Below are positions 1,637-62,637 of a stretch of 64,000 bases of DNA, piece by piece. This DNA comes from Octopus vulgaris. Lineage: Eukaryota. The stretch lies in NCBI GenBank assembly GCA_951406725.2, contig OX597815.1:94736001-94800000 (forward strand), written 5' to 3'. Made by a program: the position numbers and the translations under genes. Position 1 is the stretch's first letter. Every line of letters starts with the position of its first letter. The notes beneath the pieces were generated by a model, which saw only the letters and a list, made by a program, of their open reading frames with translations, had not been told where the DNA came from and did no database searches.

Positions 1637-6105
<4,469 letters not shown>

Positions 6106-6108
<3 letters not shown>

Positions 6109-8410
6109 TAGTTTTATTATTATTTTTATAGCGTGCTTTCACTTCACTACCGAGCGCAGCTCTGTGTGCCTTGGGTATGTGCTGTGATTTGTTGTGATGC
6201 TCTGATGGTTATTGTATGGAAAGTGTTCTGCGTAGGATGTGTGCAGTGCCTAGTAGTGCAATTTTCTGTATGTTATATGTGTTTGTAAGTCCTGGTGTTT
6301 TTGTTATGTATTTGTCTGAATATTTTTTTATCATGCCTAATGCACCTACTATGATAGGAATTGTTTCTGTTTTCAGATTCCACATTCTAGTTACCTCTAT
6401 TTCCAGGTCTTTGTATTTTGAGAGTTTCTCCATTTCTTTTAGAGACACGTTGTCATCTGCCGGTACTGATACATCAATTAGAAAGCATTTTTTTTCTTCA
6501 TGGTCTCTGACAACTATATCTGGTCTGTTGGCCTTAATTTCTCTATCTGTGTGTATCGGCATATCCCAGAGTATGGTTGCTTTCTCGTTTTCTGTGACCT
6601 TTTCTGGTGTGTGCCTATACCATCTTTTTTCTGTTGTTATTCCATAATGTTGGCATAGCTTCCAATGTATGTAAGTTTCAACTCTGTCATGTCTGTGAAT
6701 ATATTCCTTCTTAGCCAGGACTGGGCAGCTAGAGATAATATGATTTATTGTTTCTTGTCCATCTCCACATATTCTGCAGTTACTTGTAATATTTCTTTTC
6801 ATTACATGTTTTTGGTAATTTCTGGTGGGGAGGCTTTGGTCTTGTGCTGCAATTAAAAATCCCTCTGTTTCTGCTTTGAGTCCTGAGCTTCTCAACCATT
6901 GCTGGGATTTTTCTTTGTCTATTTCTTTTGCGTTTAGTTTAGTCCAGTATTTACCATGAAGGGGCTTTTCTTGCCATCGTTTTATCATGGTTCGTTGCTG
7001 TTCTATTTTTAGTTTGGATTTCATTTTTTTTATAGCTTTTGTTGTTTCTTCATCTTCTTCTTCTTCTTCTTCTTCTTCTTCTTCTTCTTCTTCTTCTTCT
7101 TCTTCTTCTTCTTCTTCTTCTTCTTCTTCTTCTTCTTCTTCTTCATGTTTATTAGGTGGTATGATTTCTTGTTTGTATTTATCAGCTTCCTTAAATACTG
7201 AGAACAGTTTTTTGTTTTGCTCGTGTTTTGCCGCTATCTGGATCAGTTTTCCTTCCTTCTGAAGTAGATATTTTTGCAGTCCTATGGTGGTTATTTTATA
7301 GTAGTTTTCCAGCTGTATAAGGCCTCTACCACCTTCTATACGTTGTATATATAGTCTTTCTATGTCAGATTTTGGGTGATGCATCCTAGATCCTGTCAGT
7401 ATTTTTCTTGTTTTCCTGTCTATTTTGGTCAGTTCATTTCGTGTCCAGTTAAGGATATTGTAGCTGTAACTTATAACTGGGACAGCTAAAGTGTTGATAC
7501 CTATTATCTTGTTTTTAGCATTGAGCTCTGTGTTTAGTATTGATCTAACTCGTCTATAATATTCTTTTTTTATTTTCTCTTTCATTTGTGTGTGTTGTGT
7601 CTTATCTAGTTCATGGATTCCTAAGTATTTGTAAGTTTGGCTTTGGTCTAATTCTTTTATTTCATTTGCTTCATCTAGTGTGATGTTGTTACTCTTAACT
7701 AGTTTTCCTCTTTTCATGGTTACTTTGGCGCATTTTTCTAATCCAAATTTCATATCTATTTCTTTAGTAAATCCATGAACTGTCTTTAATAGTGTTTCCA
7801 GCTGTTTGTCATTTGCAGCGTATAGTTTTAGGTCATCCATATATAAAAGGTGGCTGATCGTTTTGCCGTAACATTTATATCCGCATCCAGTTCTATTTAG
7901 CATATCAGATAGAGGTGACAGTGCCAAGCAGAAAAGGAGTGGAGAGAGCGTATCTCCCTGGAATATTCCTCTTCTAATGAGGGATGTCTTTGGTTTTCGT
8001 GAGTCCCTCTTTTGTTTGGAGGTGTAGGACTGTTTGCCATTTATTCATAGAGTGCTCTATGAATTTTATGATTGTTGGTGCTACTTTGTTAATGGCTAGT
8101 GTTTCGAGGATCCATGTGTGGGGGATGCTATCAAACGCCTTTTTGTAGTCAATCCAGGCCATACTGAGGCCTTTCTTCTTTCTGTGGCTGTCTTCAGTTA
8201 TGGCTTTATTAGTTGATCTTTACAGCCATATGAGCCTTTGCGGCATCCTTTCTGCTCTTCTGGGAACAGTTTGTTTTCGTCCAGGTGCTTGTTCAGCCTT
8301 TGTGATATCACTGCAGTAAATGCCTTGAACATAGTAGGGAGGCAGGTTATTGGTCTGTAGTTTTCTGGTTTTTCTGTTTCATTTGATTTGGGAATTAAGA
8401 TGGTTTTCCC
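6106..8410 (-). mobile_element. 5'-truncated R4/Dong-clade LINE (RT + CCHC + restriction-like endonuclease) inserted in (TAA)n
   Basis: Motifs NYRPITCLPT, EEQKG, WIDYKKAFDSIPH, YMDD, CRICGDGQETINHIISSC, RHD, NRPDIVV, IDVSVP and IPIIVGALG. Short 3' UTR, and (TAA)n on both flanks, the known Dong target. Confidence 0.93.
6209..8410 (-). pseudogene. Dong/R4 polyprotein, split by two frameshifts (ORFs 8198-8410, 7974-8162, 6209-7927), with an in-frame poly-Glu tract
   Basis: Consecutive RT motifs occur in different frames; (GAA)n at ~7051-7145. Confidence 0.88.
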
Positions 8411-8428
8411 CTTCGTGAGCCATTCAGG

Positions 8429-8500
<72 letters not shown>

Positions 8501-8534
8501 CATCATCATCATCATCATCATCATCATTATTATA
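8411..8534. repeat. (TTA)n(CAT)n microsatellite
   Basis: Seen directly. Confidence 0.97.
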
Positions 8535-8659
8535 CTCAGGGAAAAAGGAAAGGATAGGTATTCAGAGAAGCTGTAAATATCAAATTATTTAAAGCTGGTC
8601 GTTTGTATACACTATGTATACATAATTCTTCATCTCTTAAATATAGAACTGTACTAATC

Positions 8660-10345
8660 GCTTTGTGTGTTCGAAAACTGCAGATATGTACGTTTCTTTA
8701 CTTATTTTGAGAAAAATTTAAAATACTCACAGGAAATTGCACATATTCCATTCTTTGAGAGTTATTTTTCAGTTGTCCTGCTGGGTTGTATTAGTGTTTC
8801 TGTTAGCGTTTCTGTGTCGTCGGCTGCTGACCGATCAGAGCAGCGAAGAACACGTCCAGCTACTGTCAAGGCTGGCGCCCACCAACTTTTTAAAGCTAAA
8901 ACTGATTGTTTGTGTGTTTGAAAACTGTAGATATGTAAGTTTCTTCACTTATTAGGCCGTCAAGTATGAAATTTGTAGTAAAGAATATGGCAAGCTTTGA
9001 CAGCTGCTTATTTTGCGCTATTATTGTATTTTGACAATCTTTATTTTTGTTAGAAAATAAAGATCGTCACATCTATTTCTTTATTCTAACTCATTTTGCG
9101 TTTTATATATAAATCGTTTTTTGCTATTTTTGTTTAGAGATGGTTAAGTCGCAAATTCGTACAGTTTTGAAATATGAATTTTTCTTGGAAGTACAGGACC
9201 ACAGACAGCTCTGGAATATTTCGTTCTAATGTTATTACACAGCAGGCAATATCAAATTGGATTGCAAAATTTCATTCTGGTAACTTTGACCTCACAAATG
9301 AGCAACGCGGTCGACCAGAAACAAAGATGGATAATGACAAACTGAAAGCCACCATCGAGTCAGATCCATCTCAAAGTGCCCGTGAATTATCGCTGTTGTT
9401 TGGTGTTAGCAAGCAAATAATATTGACTCACCTAGTTCAAATCGGTAAATTGAAAAATTTGGATAAGCGAGTTCCACATGAACTCAATGAAAATCAGAAA
9501 CAGCAACATTTGAAAGCCTGTTATGCTACTTTCTGGTTGCAAAAATGAATCATTTTTTAATCATTTTTGGATCGAATTGTACCGTGATGAGAAATGTATC
9601 CAATACAACAACCGTAAACGTTCAGCACAAAGGTTGGACAAAGATGAGCCACCAAAACACAGTCCAAAAAGCAAAGCTCATCAAAAGAAGCATATGGTAG
9701 GTGTTTGGTGGTCTGGCGCAGGTGTGATCCATGATGATATCATTAAACGTAGCTCATCAATCACGGCCGAAGTATACTGAAGTCAACTGATCCAAGTGAT
9801 GCAGAAAATTACAAAAAATAGCCTAGATTAATCAACAGATCCACTCCTATTTTATTGCAAGACAACGCCAAACCACATTGCAAAAATGACATTGGCGAAA
9901 CTACAGGAGTTGGAGTCGGAAGTTCTCTATCATCCACCATACTCACCTGAACTTTTTGATAGAAAAAAATAATTCCAACGATGCTGTAAAACAGGCCGTC
10001 CAAGATTTCATTGGCTCTAGATCGACAGGCTTTTACAGTTCCATGTTGTAAAAGCTGCTTCTGAAATGGCAAAAGTGTATTGACAATATGTGTGCATGCT
10101 TTGATTTATAAAACATTAGCAAACTATTTTTTCTTTTCTACAAACTTCATGCCTGACGGCCCAATATTTTGTGGGAAATTTAAAATAATTACAGAAAATT
10201 GTAGATATCCCAGTGTTTCAAAGTCATTTTTCAGTTGTCCTACTGGGTTGTATTAGTATTTTTCTGTTAGTGTTTTTGTGTCGTCGCCTACTGACAGGTC
10301 AGAACAGCGAAGAACACGTCCAGCCGCTGTCAAAGATGGCGCTCT
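8660..10345 (+). repeat. Tandem duplication of a ~250-bp unit; the second copy is split by a mariner
   Basis: 8660-8908 matches 8909-8951 joined to 10165-10345 (for example TTTTTCAGTTGTCCT.CTGGGTTGTATTAGT and CAGCGAAGAACACGTCCAGC). Confidence 0.85.
8952..10164 (+). mobile_element. mariner transposon, full-length, transposase pseudogenised
   Basis: TIR TTAGGCCGTCAAGTATGAAATTTGTAGTAAAGAA matches the reverse complement of the right end (TTGGGCCGTCAGGCATGAAGTTTGTAGAAAAGAA). TA duplication on both sides. Motifs RGRP, RVPHEL, RDEK, LQDNAKPH and HPPYSP in broken frames. Confidence 0.93.
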
Positions 10346-24350: not shown

Positions 24351-24641
24351 CATTTGGAGAAGTCATTTAACCGTACTAGTTGTACGGTTAAAATCACCAT
24401 CTGGCCATTGAGTGGCTCTGAGAGAGTCCGCAACATTACACGAATTCGGACAAGATCTATGATGTGAAATTAACTTTTTTTCTTTTTTTCCGTTCCATAG
24501 TTTCTGAGAAGGGCCATATAGAATATCTCTGATCCTCTCACTGAGCATTTAAGCAAAAATAAAAAAAAATAAACCTTCATCACATAGACTATCAATTGTT
24601 ATAGCAATTACGCGTCCCTGCAAACTTCTACGACTAGCTTA

Positions 24642-25935
24642 CGAGGGGCGTTCAATAAGTAATGCCCCTGACCCACTTCCCATTGCAGTAGAGCAACGAA
24701 ACTTGGCTCAGTTGTTAGTCTTTTACTGCATAGGAACCACCCAGAGTTACGCATTTCTCCCATTCTTTGATGCAGCTCTGGAGACCGTTTTTGTAGAAGA
24801 CCCCCAGCTTGGTCCTCCAACCACGACGTGACTTCAGAAATCAAGGCTGCATCATCTGGGAAACGCTTTCCTTTCAAAAACAACTTCATGGCTGGGAAGG
24901 GCTGAAAATCAGAGGGTGCAGGGTCGGGAGAGTAGGGAGGATGGGGGAGGAGTTCATAGCTGCACGCTTGTGCTTCTGATCTGGCGACACGCGAGTTGTG
25001 GACTGGAGCGTTGGCCTGCAGGAGGAGGATGCCTTTGCTGATCTTGCCCCGCCTCTTGATTTTGATAGCTTCTCTTAATTTCATCAAAAGTGAAGCATAA
25101 TAGGCTCCAGTAATTGTGGTACCCTTTGCCAGGAAATCTGTCATCACTACTCCGTCCTGGTCCCAGAAGACTGTGAGCATGACCTTGCCAGCGGAGGGTT
25201 GCACTCTTGCCTTCTTTGGAGGAGGTGAGTTACGGTGCTTCCACTGCATTGACTGGGATTTGGTCTCTGGATCATAGTGATGGACCCAGGTTTCATCCTG
25301 TGTAATCAGTCTTTTGAAAAATTTTGACTCATCTTCTTGGCACATCTTCAAATTCATCTTCGAGCACTAGACGCGTTCTTGCTTCTGGAAAGGTGTGAGC
25401 AACCTGGGAATCCATCTGGCAGACACCTTTTGCATATGCAAATGGTCATGAATGATAGTTTCCACAGGCCTGGTACTAATCTTGACCTCATGTGCTATTT
25501 GGCGAATAGTTATGCGTCGATCTTGCAAAATGGCAGCCTCAACTTGACGGACAGATACCTCATAAATAGCAGAAGGGGGGCGACCAGTTCTGGGAGCTGT
25601 TTCCACAGAGTTCCGACCATGTTTGAATTCACGATGCCAGCGTTTTACAAGGTCATATGATGGAGCATCATCACCATAAGTTACTTTCATTTTATCAAAA
25701 GTCCCCCGAGGTGTGCGTCCTTTCAAATACAAAAACCGGATCACTGCTCGATACTCAACAGGCTCCATTTCACACTTGACTCAGTTCAAACACATGTAAA
25801 TCAGAAACCACAACTAGTTCATAGCTGTAATTTGCCACGTAATCTATAGAGATATAAATAATTGCACATGCAAAATTTCAACTAAATCAAACAACTGCAA
25901 GTGGGTCAGGGGCATTACTTATTGAACGTCCCTCG
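24642..25935 (-). mobile_element. mariner transposon (irritans-like), full-length, 1294 bp
   Basis: TIRs CGAGGGGCGTTCAATAAGTAATGCCCCTGACCCACTT / AAGTGGGTCAGGGGCATTACTTATTGAACGTCCCTCG, with TA duplications. Confidence 0.96.
24715..25768 (-). pseudogene. mariner DD34D transposase with an in-frame stop at 25367, second catalytic D changed to A, and a C-terminal frameshift
   Basis: MEPVEYRAVIRF, RTGRP, WIPRLL, TQDETW, LLQANAPVH, YSPDPAPSDF. Confidence 0.9.
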
Positions 25936-30923: not shown

Positions 30924-31232
30924 GTGCGTGGGAGGGGTCTGGATGTGTGTATGTATAGGGTTGGTGTATGTATTAGTATGTATAAGGGTGTGTGTGTGTG
31001 TGTGTGTGTGTATGAGAGAGTATTAGTGCGTAAGATTGGTCTGGACGTGCGTATGTATGGGGTTGGTGTATGTATTAGTATGTATTAGTATGTATTAGTA
31101 CGTATTGGTATGTATAGGTGTGTGTGTGTGTGTGTGAGAGAGTATAAGTGCGTATGCGGGGTCTGGACGTGTGTATGTATAGGGTTGGTGTAAGTATTAG
31201 TATGTACTGGTATGTATTAGTACGTATTAGTA
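30924..31232. repeat. Three tandem ~100-120-bp units in the Penelope 3' UTR
   Basis: GGTCTGGA(T/C)GTG.GTATGTAT.GGGTTGGTGTA.GTATTAGTATGTA occurs three times. Confidence 0.85.
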
Positions 31233-34200
31233 TGGCACATCATATGTGATGTGATGTGTAAAGTCATGTGGTGTAGTGAGGAGAAGAGGGGGGGGGGGGG
31301 GAGAAGGCGAGGGGAAGAAGAGGGGGAGGAGAAGGGGGAAGAGGAGAGGATGGGGAGAAGGAAGGGGAGGAGGGGGATGAAGGAGGAAAGAGGGAGAGGG
31401 GGAGAGAGGGGGTGAGGGAGCAGAGGGAAGGGGAAGAGGGAGGGAGAAAGAGGGAAGAAGGGAAGGGGAGTAGGGGTGAAAGGATGAAGGACTGAAGAAG
31501 TAGGGGTCGGGGGGAGAAAGGATAGGTGAGGAGGGGGGAGAGGGGGTTAGATGAGGAGGGGGAGAGTTGAGACCAAATGGCGTATAAGAGCGAAGAGAGA
31601 AGATTAATTCCTGTTCACGGCGCAAACGGGAATCCGGATGGCCTCTGTGTAAGGACAAACCGAACACAGATAGGTGTTGCAAGGAGTGACCGGTGGAGCG
31701 GAAATGGCGTGAGACCGGTGTGTCGTTCGCAAGGTGGATGTCACGAAGGTGTTCCGCGAACCGGTCAGCCAAGCGGCGTCCCGTTTGTCCGATGTACAAG
31801 GAATTGCAGAGAGAGCAAGAGATGCAATAGATAATATTGCTGGAGGTGCAGGTGAAGGAGTGGATGATGGGATAGGGTCGATGGTGGGTGCTAGTGAGGC
31901 GGGTGGTGTTGGAGAGGTAAGGGCAAGTGCGGCAACGTGGGCGGGAGCAGGGGAACGAGCCGGGTTGGGAGGTAGGGTCAGGGAAGGAGCTATGGACCAA
32001 AAGGTCTCGAAGGTTGTGGGCTCGTTTGAAAGAGGGGAGGGGTCGGTTAGGGAAGAGGTGTGAAGTGGACGGGTCGGACTGGAGATGACGGAAAGCTCGA
32101 AGAATGGTGCGTTGGAGACGTAGGGTCGTGGGGTGGTAAGTGAGGGGAAAAGGGAGGCGGGAGACTACAGGGCGGGTTCGGGGAGAGAGAGCAGATACAC
32201 GGTCCACGGACCGTGCTCTGGCAAGGGCGGTGTGGATAGTGGTGAGGGGGTATCCATGTAGGGTGAAGTGGTGAGCCATACGTTGAGACTGAGTCTCAAA
32301 GTCATGGTCGTCACTACAGAGCCTACGTAGACGGAGGAATTGGGAATAGGGGATGGAAAGCTTGGTGTGTTCTGGGTGGGAGGAAGAGAAGTTGAGGTAT
32401 GAGTGTGAGTCTGTGTGTTTGTAGTGAATGGAGGTGGTAAGAGTGGAGTGAAGAATGCTAACCGAAATGTCGAGGAAGGAGACAGAGGTGTTGGAGATAG
32501 TGGAAGTGAAGTGGAGGGCTGGATGGAAAGATTGGACGAAAGAGAGGAAGGAATCTAGATGTTCGCGGGAGAGTGAGGTGGCACCGATAATGTCGTCAAT
32601 ATAACGACCATATAGTTCAGGAGTGGGACCAGTGAAATTAGAGAATATTTGGGCCTCAACATAGCCAACGAACAGGTTCGCATAGTTGGGGCCCATTCGC
32701 GTTCCCATGGCCACTCCCGAGCCCTGATGGTAGAACTCGCCCGCGAACGAGAAGCAGTTCAGAGTAAGGACAAGTTCGGCCAGACGAATGAGTGTGGAGG
32801 TGTCAGGTACAGGGTTAGAGCGGAGGTCAAGAAAGTGTCGAAGGGCCTGCAGTCCTTCGTGGTGAGGGATAACAGTATAGAGGCTTTGGATGTCCATAGT
32901 AAAAAGGATTTTGGAGGAGCCGGGAGGAAAGGAGAAAGAGTTGAAAAGCCGGAGAGCATGGTTGGTATCGTGGATGTGGGAGGGAAGAGATGCCACTAGG
33001 GGGGCAAGGACACGGTCGAGGTATTTAGAGATGAGCTCCGTGGGGCAGTTACAGGCGGAGACGATGGGGCGGCCAGGGTTGTTGGGTTTGTGGATTTTGG
33101 GGAGGAAGTAAATTGTGGGGGTACGTGGGGTTCGCACAATTAGGTTGGATGCGGTGCGGGGGAGACGGGAGGACGAGATGAGGTCTTGGACAGTAGAGGA
33201 TACCGTCTGTTGGTAGCTACGTGTGGGGTTAGAGGGCAGAGGGGAATAGAAGGAGGTGTCATTGAGTTGGCGGAAAGCCTCGGCCCTATAGAGGTCCGCG
33301 CGCCACACCACTACAGCTCCACCCTTGTCAGCCGGTTTGATGATAATGTCAGCGCGCCGTTGGAGGGAACGAAGAGCCAAGAGCTCAGCCGGGGAGATGT
33401 TGAGGCGGCGTTGGCGCCTGGAGAAGTTGAACCGCTCCAATGCACGCTGACAAGCGCCCGCGAAAAGATCCACTGCTAGGATCTGGCCAGGGGCAGGCGT
33501 CCACGGGGATGGTCGGCGGCCCAGGCCAGTGAAGCAGTCGTCCTCTTCGTTGGGTGTGGGTGGCGAGTCGTGGTAATGCGCACCCAACCGGACACGGCGC
33601 ACAAAGCTGTGGACATCAACTCGCGTCTGGAATTCCTTACAGGATGGAGTGAGGGGGATGAAACGCAGACCCCTACCAAGGACGGAGCGTTCAGCCGCAG
33701 AGAGGGGAAGATCGGGGGGAATGGTAACAACAGACGGAAGTGGAGAAGGGGTGGGTGGAATAGAAGTAGGAGGGGTGGTAGGTCTCGTGGAGGTCTGAGG
33801 GGGAGGGATTGGGAAGGTGTGTGGTGGGTGGTTGGGCGGGGCAGTAGGGTTAGGTGTAGGTGGATGGAGCCTAACGGGAGGGGAGAAGGGGTTGTAAGGA
33901 GGGGCAGTGGGGTTAGGTGTGGGTGGATGGAGCCTATCGGGAGGGGAGAAGGGTGGTGGAGGAGTTGGGGTAGTGGCGTCGGGTAGGGTGGAATGGAAGA
34001 GTGATTGGAGTTTACGAAGTTTGGTATCAGAAAGAAATTGATGGAAGAGTTGATTCAAATGGATAATGAAGCGTAGCGTGTTTGGAGCATAGAGAGGCGG
34101 CAGAGAGGAGAAGAAGGTGGAGAAAGCAGGAGGAAGAAGGCGGTTGATGGCATGTAGTTTGGAGAGATTGGAGCGAATGGTGGCCCGCATAAGGCTGTAA

Positions 34201-34453
34201 GATGTGGTGCGGAGTATGGGTAAGATGGAAGAATCCGAGTGGAGAGCAGGGTGGAAGTGGAGGCGGAAACCTTTAGGGATGAGTCGGTGATGTAGGCAGC
34301 GGCTTAGGAAAGAGACATGGCTAGAGAAGCGGGTTTTTTAAAAAGAAGTAGAGAGAGATTAACGGACGGCTGAAGGCAATATACAGGAAGAGAACGTAGA
34401 TGATCCTTCAAACGGTGATGGAGGGTGAGGAGGTAGGACCTAGGATCCGGCAT
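31227..34453 (-). CDS. Penelope-like polyprotein (RT, Cys linker, GIY-YIG endonuclease); probable start ATG 34453 with one frameshift in the A-run near 34335
   Basis: [51 protein letters not shown] and [18 protein letters not shown]...RFAEH. The upstream frame reads [16 protein letters not shown] and joins MPDPRSY... across a 1-nt shift. The low-complexity tail after GLNSPP may not be real protein. Confidence 0.9.
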
Positions 34454-44823: not shown

Positions 44824-44879
<56 letters not shown>

Positions 44880-44904
44880 AAAAAGCAACAAGAATGGATC
44901 AATA

Positions 44905-44993
44905 TTTCGGTACAATTGTTTCGTACGAAGACAGCTTTATTAAGGCTGCAAATATTGCAGTAAATATAAGTGACCCGTACTCATCAGCCGAAA
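44905..44993 (-). ncRNA. Type I hammerhead ribozyme (left arm)
   Basis: UUUCGG-CUGAUGA-GUACG...CGUAC-GAAAC-AAUU-GUA-CCGAAA on the minus strand. Confidence 0.87.
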
Positions 44994-45694
44994 AAACATC
45001 TGAGTTCTCCAAACATCTAAGGGGGTGATGTTACACCACTGAAACATTGGGGATAGTTCTATAAAAATAAGATTTAGGTAACAAATGGACTTCTGAAAGT
45101 TCTTTTAGTGTTGCACAGTCATATAACGGGTTTTAAAAAAGTATTTTAAAAAACCTCTTAGTTTTCCAGAAAATGAAAATGAAATTGAAAATATAAATCC
45201 ATCCATATTGAAGAAAGTTTGAATTCTGGAGATATGAGGATAGGTATCATACTCACAGAATATGCATTTATCCATAATTAGTCCATAATAAAGTGTGTTT
45301 CCTGATGTGTGATGATATATTGGTTACCTTTCTGAAAGGTAACCAATATATCATCAGAAAGGTAACCAATATATCATCACACATCAGGAAACACACTTTA
45401 TTATGGACTAATTATGGATAAATGCATATTCTGTGAGTATGATACCTCTCCTCATATCTCCAGAATTCAAACTTTCTTCAATATGGATGGATTTACATTT
45501 TCAACTTCATTTTCATTTTCTGGAAAACTAAGAGGCTTTTTAAAATACTTTTTAAAACCCGTTATATGACTGTGCAACACTAAAAGAACTTTCAGAAGTC
45601 CATTTGCTACCTAAATCTTATTTTTATAGAACTATCCCCAATGTTTCAGGAGTGTAACATCACCCCCTTAGATGTTTGGAGAACTCAGATGTTT

Positions 45695-45782
45695 TTTCGG
45701 CTGATGAGTACGGGTCACTTATATTTACTGCAATATTTGCAGCCTTAATGAGGTCAGTTCGTACGAAACAATTGTACCGAAA
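45695..45782 (+). ncRNA. Type I hammerhead ribozyme (right arm)
   Basis: UUUCGG-CUGAUGA-GUACG...CGUAC-GAAAC-AAUU-GUA-CCGAAA; predicted cleavage after 45776. Confidence 0.88.
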
Positions 45783-45923
45783 TATTGATCCATTCTTGTT
45801 GCTTTTTTCTTATTTATAATCACCCCGCATTATCTTATGGTTAACACCATATAGATTTCTGGTGCATCTAAGTTAAGTACCGCATTCATGTGAATTCAAC
45901 AGAACTCACTTGAATCTTAATTG

Positions 45924-45980
<57 letters not shown>

Positions 45981-60291: not shown

Positions 60292-62637
60292 TCTCTCTAT
60301 ATATAAAAGGCAGTTTGTCTGTCTGTGTGTGTGTCTGTGTGTGTGTCTGTCAGGTTGTACCCTCACCCTGACCACGGCTTTCAACCGATTCTGATGAAAC
60401 TTGACACACACATAGCCCAATGTTATAATTCAAACCTAACGTAGCGAAAAGTTTGAAAAGTTCCCCCAGTTTTGAAAAAGATTTATAAATTCGACATGGG
60501 GTCGAGAATCTAAACTTATCATATGCAATACATTTTCCGTTGTAGTTTTCGCAACTTGCAATCGATTTTCACCAAACTCATGGTGAAGCTTAATGTTACC
60601 ATAAGGAACTTAATTCTGACGTTAGTTTTCCATGCAATACCTTACCATCAGAAAAAATCGATAATCATGCCATTTTGGGAAATCGCGTTCAAATTCAAGA
60701 TGACATTTTCGACAATATCTTTAACAAATTGGCAGGAATTCTTTTTGAAATTCACAGCGAGCATCATGTCTGCTCCAAGGAGCTATATGGCCCTTTTGAT
60801 TCCAATAGGATACGTTATTACTGGAAAATATCGGTTAATTACATCATATGTGGCACACATAGCAAACGATTTTTCTGCGATATATTTTGCAAGTTCACAT
60901 AGATTTTCCCTACACCGATGTTGGACATCAAGTTTGCATTAAATGTCAAACTAACGATCTTTTGTCAATGCAGTTAACAAGTATTGGGAGAAATCGACAA
61001 AACCATATCACTTTGAGACCGACCATGCGAACCCTACAAAACTGACTTTTGTTAAATAGTTGGCGGATTTCAGGCGATTTAGTCGATTTTTGCCGCTTTT
61101 ATCATAAAGGTTACTAGAAATGGCATATGTTTTCCTTTTGTTTCAAATCCGAGCAATGTTGGGCTGTAGATGCGTTTGCGGTTGTGTGCGCACGTGCACG
61201 CGTGTCCTTGAAATGATGATTGCAACTCTTCCCATTGGCTCCCCAAACGGTGATCAATGCTCTGAATTAAACACCCTTTGGTCAATCACATGCACTGACA
61301 CACTCAGTTGTGCGCGTATAGCTTGTGACTCCCACTTCTTCTCTCGGTTCACACCCGCTCGCTTCACACGTTGGCCTACTCCTGCTAATCGTTGCTGTAG
61401 CCGCAAGTTATTCGAATACTTTTTTGTTTAAACTTTCTTTATAACTACCACCCCATACGTTTTACTTTAAATTTTTGTCGTACCCTAAGGGTACACGGAC
61501 GCTACTTGCAAACTCTTGGTTTATTATAAGCCTCATTTGTCGTGTGCACCAAAAGACCTTTTCCATTCGTTTGTTCAGTTTGGTTACTTTTCGCTTTTTC
61601 GTCGTTGTAACTCACATTGCTGCCCGCTTTTTTTCCGTTTTTGTACATTTTTATACATTTGGGGAGACTTACCCCACGTGTTCCTTTTTATTACACCTTT
61701 GCCAAAAACATTGCTATCCACCAAAACGCTAACCAAGAAGAGAAGGACCCTCCTCAGCCCTCGGACGGCCAAGGCATCGGCTGCTAGGGCTAGAAGGGCA
61801 AGCGAGACCCACGAGGAAACCGCTTTGCGCCTCTCGCAAAAAGCTTCCCGTTCTGCCGCTACTCAGGCATCTGAAACTACTAGCGACCGTTCTACCCGAC
61901 TTGCAAGGGCCGCAGCGTACAGATCTTCCCTCCGCTCGAGGTTGACGAAAGAGCAGCAGTTCAGCCAAAACATGCGGGCTTCTTCCTGTGCTTCCATCCG
62001 CAGAGCTCGCGAGATCCCCGAACAAAGGGCCATTCGGAATGCGCCTAACGCCGCTAGCACCACCAGGACACGATCTGTCGAAACCCCACAGCAGAGGAGA
62101 ACTCGCCAAGCTGTTGACGCCGCAAGCACAGCCATGGCCCGATCTGCCGAAACACCACAACAGATGAGTGCTCGCCAAGCTGCTAACTACACAAACACAG
62201 CCATGGCTCAATCTGCCGAAACTCAAGACCAACAAACTATTCGGACATACAGAGATGCCATTAACACTGCTTCTTCAAGGGCTTCAGAGAGTGCTGAGGC
62301 GAGAGCTGAAAGGCTTTCAAGGGATACCACTGCTACCGCTGTCGCACGCGCATCTCAATCTGCTGAGGCACGGCGCACTCGACTTCAGAGTATCAATCAA
62401 CGTCGGGATATCATTCGTGGTGTACGTAACCCTAAACAAAACCAGAAAATGCACTCTGACTGTCATAGATTTTCTTCATACATGCAAGGGAATGGTGCCT
62501 TGAATGCCTTAATGCCTTTTAGGCTTCATTTTACAAAATAACGGTTCGATGAGTACAAAAAAGGGTTAAAAGGTAAAGGGCATTGGTGATCGACAAAGTT
62601 TCTTACATACCCGGGCAACGCCGGGCTCTGCTGCTAG
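60292..62637 (+). mobile_element. Internally deleted Helitron, 2346 bp
   Basis: 5' end A|TCTCTCTATATATAAAA; 3' hairpin CCCGGGCAACGCCGGG; 3' end CTAG|T. Termini resemble those of 38097-38730. Confidence 0.9.
61726..62541 (+). pseudogene. N-terminal remnant of a Helitron Rep/Hel ORF with nine 23-aa STPR-like repeats
   Basis: ETHEETALR.., ETTSDRSTR.., LTKEQQFSQ.., EIPEQRAIR.., ETPQQRRTR.., ETPQQMSAR.., ETQDQQTIR.., ESAEARAER.. and QSAEARRTR occur at an exact 23-aa period after basic KKRR. No HUH or helicase motifs follow. Confidence 0.78.

What the first reader, a model, noticed from the sequence alone, without database searches (positions are those of the whole stretch)
44876..45924. Kilobase foldback carrying two intact hammerheads with an oversized loop II
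Seen: ~460-bp arms each end in a perfect type I hammerhead (6-bp stem I, 5-bp stem II, palindromic ACAAUUGU stem III). Loop II is ~47 nt and has its own hairpin CUGCAA-UAU-UUGCAG. Arm differences cluster in that loop (AAAGCUGUC vs GAGGUCAG), while cores and stems are identical. There is no coding sequence, and (TA)n lies on both flanks. Inference: a Penelope inverted-pLTR or non-autonomous product. A transcript from either strand would contain one ribozyme plus its antisense, so folding competition could switch cleavage off or yield long dsRNA.
Basis: partly seen in the sequence, partly recalled or inferred. Interest (0 to 1): 0.72.

Follow-up and report, generated by a model that had tools for sequence, protein, structure and literature searches.

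The report
Head-to-head Penelope retrotransposon stub
This kilobase hairpin is two head-to-head copies of the ribozyme-bearing end of an abundant Penelope-like jumping gene, a known kind of insertion by-product rather than a ribozyme switch, likely made when both sides of a DNA cut were copied from the element's RNA at two different start points.

Summary
The foldback and both type I hammerhead motifs are real. They are the non-coding 3' end (pLTR) of an abundant Penelope-like element (PLE). In the same genome I found parents with an intact 958-1072 aa RT + GIY-YIG ORF carrying the motifs that define the Hydra clade. Inverted pLTRs, a one-sided tail and (TA)n targets are published PLE traits.

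The long loop II is family-wide (43-46 nt against 3-10 nt in published Hydra ribozymes). Nothing supports a switch, and cleavage and transcription were not shown.

The useful residue is mechanistic. Of 33 head-to-head pairs, 32 join one short end to one end about 115 nt longer. In 11 of those 32, each arm holds sequence the other lacks, so one arm cannot be a copy of the other. A predicted 13-bp helix over the start codon encloses both end points.

This scan has already noted similar PLE foldbacks, with the same double-priming idea, on other DNA (49 findings, at least 21 genomes). Verdict: new member of a known kind.

The parts
44827..44877 (.). (TA)25 left target microsatellite
   Evidence: nearly all family ends abut TA-rich runs
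44876..45335 (-). Left arm: inverted, 5'-truncated pLTR/3' UTR copy with the short end (about 36 nt past the predicted cut site)
44905..44993 (-). Type I hammerhead motif, family-type loop II; predicted cut after 44911
45334..45379 (+). Inversion junction: hairpin turn, 18-nt spacer (45336-45353) and exact 23-nt tandem duplication made of element sequence
   Evidence: similar templated junction bits in L164 and L167
45354..45813 (+). Right arm: 5'-truncated pLTR/3' UTR copy
45695..45782 (+). Type I hammerhead motif; predicted cut after 45776
45728..45742 (+). Hairpin at the tip of the long helix II insertion
   Evidence: 93% of cells paired in 15 copies, no two-sided change; folds
45750..45757 (+). 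Private 8-for-9-nt replacement in loop II of the right arm
   Evidence: 0 of 36 other printed ribozymes carry it; 43 of 44 arms have the left-arm base at its first position
45789..45801 (+). 13-nt strand predicted to pair with the start-codon region in full-length parents (partner absent here)
45814..45924 (+). One-sided tail: part of the element's 5' UTR, ending about 60 nt before the ATG of the parent
   Evidence: L079 carries this sequence and continues into the ORF
45925..45975 (.). (TA)25 right target microsatellite

Best explanation
The locus is a truncated, head-to-head insertion of the non-coding, hammerhead-bearing end of a Penelope-like retrotransposon with Hydra-clade motifs, likely built when both ends of a cut in a (TA)n tract were extended on the element's RNA, one from a near and one from a far start site, and the two copies were joined. 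Shown: the parent ORF, the pLTR identity, two end classes (29-42 and 149-163 nt after the predicted ribozyme cut), short+long pairing, 1-6-nt junction overlaps, and shared haplotype of the two arms. Inferred: a double-strand cut by the GIY-YIG domain, priming at two internal RNA sites, and microhomology joining. At this locus both arms start at the same base, so a fold-back step of one cDNA with a 23-nt slip probably contributed. The ribozymes are passengers. In the element they would cut as a dimer through the palindromic helix III, or with protein help (inferred).
For: Family: 3217 first-look candidates, 40 scored at 92-97% identity. In L031, L032, L033 and L037 the same pLTR (91-95% identical) runs upstream into an Asn-rich linker, GIY-YIG (Pfam E 3-4e-5) and RT. 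Intact ORFs lie between pLTRs of sister subfamilies: L093 1072 aa, L098 958 aa. Geometry: 22 short+long head-to-head pairs among 42 insertions, and 10 more among 12 new loci. Against these there is 1 long+long pair and 0 short+short head-to-head pairs. Among loci picked by the ribozyme region alone, 10 of 10 pairs inside the default flanks are short+long (at most 0.5^10 if ends were independent, by hand). In 11 of 32 pairs the short-ended arm reaches further 5' while the other holds the tail (6; 5, one by only 6 nt). The arms of a locus share subfamily alleles (36 of 38 sites here). Published: inverted pLTR with a tail on one side (PMC8557442, PMC3846280); PAc cuts both strands and starts RT at two internal sites that bound the tail (PMC11167929).
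Against: No intact ORF of the exact subfamily was found: L079 is a broken 5' part, and the intact ORFs have pLTRs 72-84% identical. At this locus and at L029 and L148 both arms start at one base in a palindrome, which fits self-priming; PMC3846280 argues for self-priming on an antisense template. The depletion of long+long pairs depends on the assumed end frequency (P 4e-5 at 0.5, 0.12 at 0.2). One long+long pair exists (L028). All samples are top-40 hits, not a census. No target-site duplication can be read inside (TA)n.
Confidence: 0.85

Rival explanations
1. Same element, but the inversion arises by self-priming alone: one cDNA (or an antisense RNA) folds back and copies itself.
For: Hairpin-like centre with both arms starting at one base here and in L029 and L148. 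Proposed in the Discussion of PMC3846280. Arms share haplotypes.
Against: In 11 of 32 pairs each arm has sequence the other lacks. A plain self-copy gives no reason to stop at a fixed short end, unless the template already carries two pLTRs.
Confidence: 0.25
2. A functional RNA switch or hairpin-RNA gene: the foldback silences the ribozyme or feeds small-RNA or editing pathways for the host.
For: A read-through transcript would be almost fully paired. PLE-derived small RNAs are reported in a rotifer (PMC3846280).
Against: Both arms decay privately. The geometry recurs at 31 other loci as an insertion by-product. The single arm is not predicted to fold as a hammerhead. No host domain was found among 76 window ORFs.
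Confidence: 0.04
3. A non-autonomous foldback unit (MITE-like or retrozyme-like) that moves as a whole.
For: No coding sequence, terminal inverted arms, many related foldbacks.
Against: Every junction differs. Sizes run from under 300 bp to over 4 kb. There are no tandem units, and the arms continue into the ORF in longer copies.
Confidence: 0.03
4. Assembly or library fold-back artefact.
For: The locus's private alleles were not seen in contigs of 4 runs. Contigs drop rare variants and the runs may be other animals.
Against: Private changes on both arms (4 left, 3 right, plus the loop lesion), the one-sided tail, and the same end rule at 31 other loci.
Confidence: 0.02

Closest known systems
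Hydra clade of C-terminal-endonuclease Penelope-like elements (Craig et al. 2021, PMC8557442), including Hydra-1_Obim and Penelope-13_HM
   Same: RWK/RWR, DKT, CxCx5C linker, GIY-YIG without CCHH, CxxC and CxH around E/N, (TA)n targets, type I hammerhead. Penelope-13_HM is listed with an inverted 5'-truncated copy.
   Different: The unit is 4.2-4.7 kb with a 958-1072 aa ORF (Asn-rich linker), against generally under 3 kb. Loop II is 43-46 nt against 3-10 nt. The ribozyme sequence differs from that of Hydra-1_Obim.
Inverted-pLTR insertions with one-sided tail (Adineta vaga Pen2a, PMC3846280; general scheme in PMC8557442)
   Same: Head-to-head pLTRs, tail on one arm, palindromic or microhomology junctions, Asn-rich ORF inserts.
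   Different: The tail is about 115 nt instead of 30-40 nt and lies in the 5' UTR. Published Hydra consensus ends are also spread in two main groups after the ribozyme (10 of 24 at 25-42 nt, 10 of 24 at 92-148 nt), so the long tail may be clade-wide.
PAc (Poseidon, Anolis), PMC11167929
   Same: Two end points downstream of a hammerhead, AT-rich targets.
   Different: In PAc the ribozyme overlaps the start codon and RT starts inside the ORF. Here the ribozyme cut site is 209-210 nt before the ATG and both ends lie in the leader.
Non-LTR retrozymes (bioRxiv 10.64898/2026.07.22.740005)
   Same: Non-coding, type I hammerhead, PLE-related.
   Different: Retrozymes are head-to-tail tandem units. This is a head-to-head pair with a locus-specific junction.

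Membership tests
EN+ Penelope-like element | Single ORF with RT and C-terminal GIY-YIG | tested here: met
   Pfam hits on fragments: GIY-YIG above cut-off, RVT_1 E 0.0045 below cut-off. The full-length ORFs gave no Pfam hit.
EN+ Penelope-like element | pLTRs flanking the ORF, direct and inverted, with a tail on one end | tested here: met
EN+ Penelope-like element | Hammerhead motif in the pLTR | tested here: met
EN+ Penelope-like element | Spliceosomal intron in the leader (some families) | not tested
   no spliced reads available
Hydra clade | RWK motif, GxKF/Y not conserved | tested here: met
   RWK at 38 in L098, RWR at 37 in L093; no GxKF match (GxKY was not searched)
Hydra clade | DKG changed to DKT | tested here: met
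Hydra clade | CxCx5C linker instead of CX2-5CxxC; CCHH absent; CxxC and CxH around E and N | tested here: met
   motif scan, and the printed EN domain read by eye for CCHH
Hydra clade | Insertion into (TA)n | tested here: met
Hydra clade | Generally short (<3 kb) | tested here: not met
   Ribozyme-to-ribozyme unit 4.2-4.7 kb. The paper gives this as typical ('generally'), not diagnostic.
Hydra clade | Groups with Hydra RTs in a tree | not tested
   Reference proteins were only read in the supplement. Likeness to Hydra-1_Obim was judged by eye, not aligned.
Type I hammerhead ribozyme | CUGAnGA and GAAA core, UH triplet, three helices | tested here: met
   In 15 copies 96.5% of cells are paired, with one two-sided change, in helix III, that keeps the palindrome (2 sequences). 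The count of such pairs does not beat shuffles (226/500).
Type I hammerhead ribozyme | Self-cleavage | not testable with these tools
   No junction at the predicted cut site. The monomer fold is not favoured.
Non-LTR retrozyme | Tandem head-to-tail units each with a hammerhead | tested here: not met
MITE or foldback DNA transposon | Fixed unit with symmetric ends copied as a whole | tested here: not met
   asymmetric ends and locus-specific junctions

The most novel reading that the evidence does not exclude
Hydra-clade PLEs integrate through an asymmetric two-ended complex: one target end must prime at the near site and the other at the far site of a leader domain closed by a 13-bp helix over the start codon, so that the same RNA fold would choose between translation and reverse transcription. 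The palindromic helix III of a hammerhead with a 45-nt helix II insertion would pair two RNAs in that complex.
Probability: 0.3. Interest if true: 0.6.

Novelty: new member of a known kind. Interest (0 to 1): 0.24.

Why it matters
The locus itself is ordinary. The family has intact ORFs and a near-strict short+long end rule, so it offers a concrete substrate for an open question: how PLEs make inverted pLTRs and one-sided tails, and what their hammerheads do. It also shows that hammerheads with a 45-nt insertion in helix II are missed by Rfam.

Tried and rejected
Rfam: no hammerhead hit; the weak miRNA-type hits only reflect hairpins.

PDB sequence search with the RT region: 0 hits. Pfam on two full ORFs: nothing useful.

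One search used wrong coordinates and returned an unrelated repeat; L039-L058 were left out of all family counts.

Two different source elements per foldback: not supported, since arms share haplotypes. L002, L020, L026 and L029 differ at 2-4 polymorphic sites, which is inconclusive (the script stopped before its last table).

A-to-I editing trace: only 3 T-to-C changes in the right arm, too few to read.

Junctions at the ribozyme cut site (lead from a scan note): an exact-pattern search found 0, and none of the 12 new loci starts there. The earlier samples were biased against such stubs.

A second Hydra-like family: my descriptor found no hammerhead of its own in 18 loci, so it gave no covariation test for the start-codon helix.

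Public runs: no RNA holder listed. Contigs of 4 of the 24 listed runs were laid on the right arm and spacer only. They showed family alleles, no piece spanning the stretch, and one strand-switch joint of another copy in a run only guessed to be RNA. This says nothing on expression or on this locus.

L093's two short ends belong to a larger inverted duplication that includes flank and were not counted. L120 is tail-to-tail and was counted apart.

Paper searches listed no paper on this family. Of the papers I opened, none states an obligate short+long rule or a start-codon helix. The library lacks most subscription papers; Repbase and Dfam were not available.

Full report
OBSERVATION. The left arm (44876-45335, minus strand) and right arm (45354-45813) align with 448 matches. 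They differ by 7 scattered substitutions, 2 one-base indels and one 9-versus-8-nt block in loop II. Rfam misses them.

FAMILY AND PARENT. The genome is 2.8 Gb in 227 contigs. A 325-nt query gave 3217 first-look candidates, of which 40 were scored at 92-97% identity; this is not a copy number. Extending 8 loci showed the pLTR continuing upstream into an Asn-rich linker, a Cys motif, GIY-YIG and RT motifs. A search with the ORF's 5' part gave 40 places, and 20 were extended. They include uninterrupted ORFs between pLTRs (L092, L093, L094, L098) with ribozyme-to-ribozyme units of 4.2-4.7 kb. L079, the closest subfamily (96.6% over 206 nt; 100% over the last 148 nt), shows that the extra 111 nt are the 5' UTR, which reaches the ATG 210 nt after the predicted cut. 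L093 and L098 carry RWR/RWK, DKT, PMGS, YRDD, CxCx5C, a GIY-YIG-type core, CxxC..E and N..E..CxH, and no CX2-5CxxC. These are the features listed for the Hydra clade in PMC8557442 (section 11). No tree was built. The best named protein hit is from Octopus sinensis (70% over 43% of the query), so the host is likely an octopus (inference).

END RULE. Ends fall in two groups, 29-42 and 149-163 nt after the predicted cut (33 and 32 of 67 hits; 2 others). The spread partly reflects chance matches to the TA run. Among 42 insertions, 22 are head-to-head short+long, 1 is long+long, 1 is tail-to-tail short/short, and 18 are single within the fetched flanks. Of 12 further loci, 10 are short+long, 1 is single and 1 is the L079 leader. 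Most loci were picked by a long end, so the long+long test depends on end frequency (P 4e-5 to 0.12). The cleaner test is the ribozyme-only search: 25 insertions, in which 10 of 10 head-to-head pairs inside default flanks are short+long; 9 short singles may have partners beyond 1.5 kb. Junctions mostly overlap by 1-6 nt or have short gaps, some filled with templated element pieces. In 11 of 32 pairs the short-ended arm reaches further into the element while the other arm alone has the tail, so neither arm is a plain copy of the other. Arms of a locus share subfamily alleles. Here the arms differ at 2.6% of sites, against a median of 5.2% to other copies.

RIBOZYME. Over 15 distinct copies from several subfamilies, 96.5% of stem cells pair, and helix II is 100% paired over 7 bp. 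Stem I runs through CG/UG/UA and GC/GU/AU series. Helix III has one two-sided change that keeps the palindrome, in 2 related sequences. Relatedness inflates these controls. The 'loop II' folds as an irregular extension of helix II in all 15 copies. It is 43-46 nt, against 3-10 nt for Hydra ribozymes in File S2 of PMC8557442, where two plant or algal PLE-X motifs have 29-35 nt. The right arm's loop variant is private. ViennaRNA gives the hammerhead stems near-zero probability in the arm alone and in the foldback. The constrained fold is only about 1 kcal/mol above the optimum in a 107-nt fragment, and the helix III palindrome co-folds as a dimer at -8.4 kcal/mol. PMC4209133 reports that such motifs need dimers, cut poorly, and sometimes occur 100-700 bp apart on opposite strands. 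PMC11167929 found a PLE hammerhead protein-assisted and not needed for insertion in vitro. Cleavage is untested here, and I found no genomic trace of it.

LEADER HELIX. A 13-nt strand 7 nt after the ribozyme is complementary to the start-codon region. It is intact in 9 of 10 loci that hold both strands and 12 bp in the tenth. It forms in 8 of 8 folds, with pair probability 0.91-1.0 and 2 of 1000 shuffles matching. Changes are one-sided only, so it remains a prediction. Both end points lie inside the domain it closes.

MECHANISM. Shown: identity, end classes, pairing, junctions. Inferred from these and from PMC11167929 (both strands cut, two internal RT starts bounding the tail): each target end primes a cDNA, one near and one far, and the cDNAs are joined by microhomology. 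At this locus the hairpin turn and 23-nt slip suggest a fold-back step during joining. PMC3846280 prefers self-priming on an antisense template, which stays a rival. I put the element identity at about 0.96 and two-ended priming at about 0.65.

WHAT IS KNOWN. Inverted pLTRs, one-sided tails, TA targets, junction palindromes and Asn-rich inserts are all published. What differs: element length, loop II length and a tail of about 115 nt. Published Hydra consensus lengths hint that the long tail is clade-wide (my arithmetic from Files S1 and S2). The scan's notes list 49 similar findings in at least 21 genomes, several with the double-priming reading. I reached that reading before the look-up; they are not independent support.

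PAPERS SEEN. PMC8557442: passages, section 11, supplement parts 1-2 of 59 and search hits. PMC11167929 and PMC4209133: parts 1-2 of 4 of the text, supplements not seen (Fig. S2 of the former may bear on the leader fold). PMC3846280: passages and Discussion. bioRxiv 10.64898/2026.07.22.740005: part 1 of 5, supplements not seen.

VERDICT. Real, ordinary for its class, new member of a known kind. Interest 0.24.

Noticed in passing
window 31230-34337 (-): Uninterrupted 1036-codon frame of another PLE: DKG motif, RT (Pfam RVT_1 E 1.9e-7), CX4CxxC linker and GIY-YIG-like end with CxxC and two His; Neptune-like by motifs.
   Followed up: partly
window 6212-8584 (-): LINE-type RT remnant with a poly-Glu insert, next to about 1.8 kb of (ATT)n at 4286-6129.
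   Followed up: no
window 9514-9777 (+) and 24611-25780 (-): Mariner-type transposase remnants.
   Followed up: no
window 61489-62538 (+): 350-codon frame with STPR repeats (Pfam E 3.6e-12).
   Followed up: no
L035:8490-9200, L129-L146: Second Hydra-like family (RWR, DKT) fused directly to the tail end of this family in L035; no hammerhead of its own found by my descriptor in 18 loci.
   Followed up: partly
L087:7289-7492 and L089:7778 (oriented coordinates): Compact hammerheads of other families; in L087 a small head-to-head pair about 200 bp apart.
   Followed up: no
L093:1-2597 vs 5548-8122: At least 2.6-kb inverted duplication at 99% identity that includes flanking DNA; later rearrangement or assembly feature.
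   Followed up: partly
L094: Two long ORF copies head to head around the leader, one intact at 981 codons.
   Followed up: no
P0008: An Octopus sinensis protein annotated as ankyrin-repeat contains a 70% identical piece of this RT; likely a gene-model chimera.
   Followed up: no
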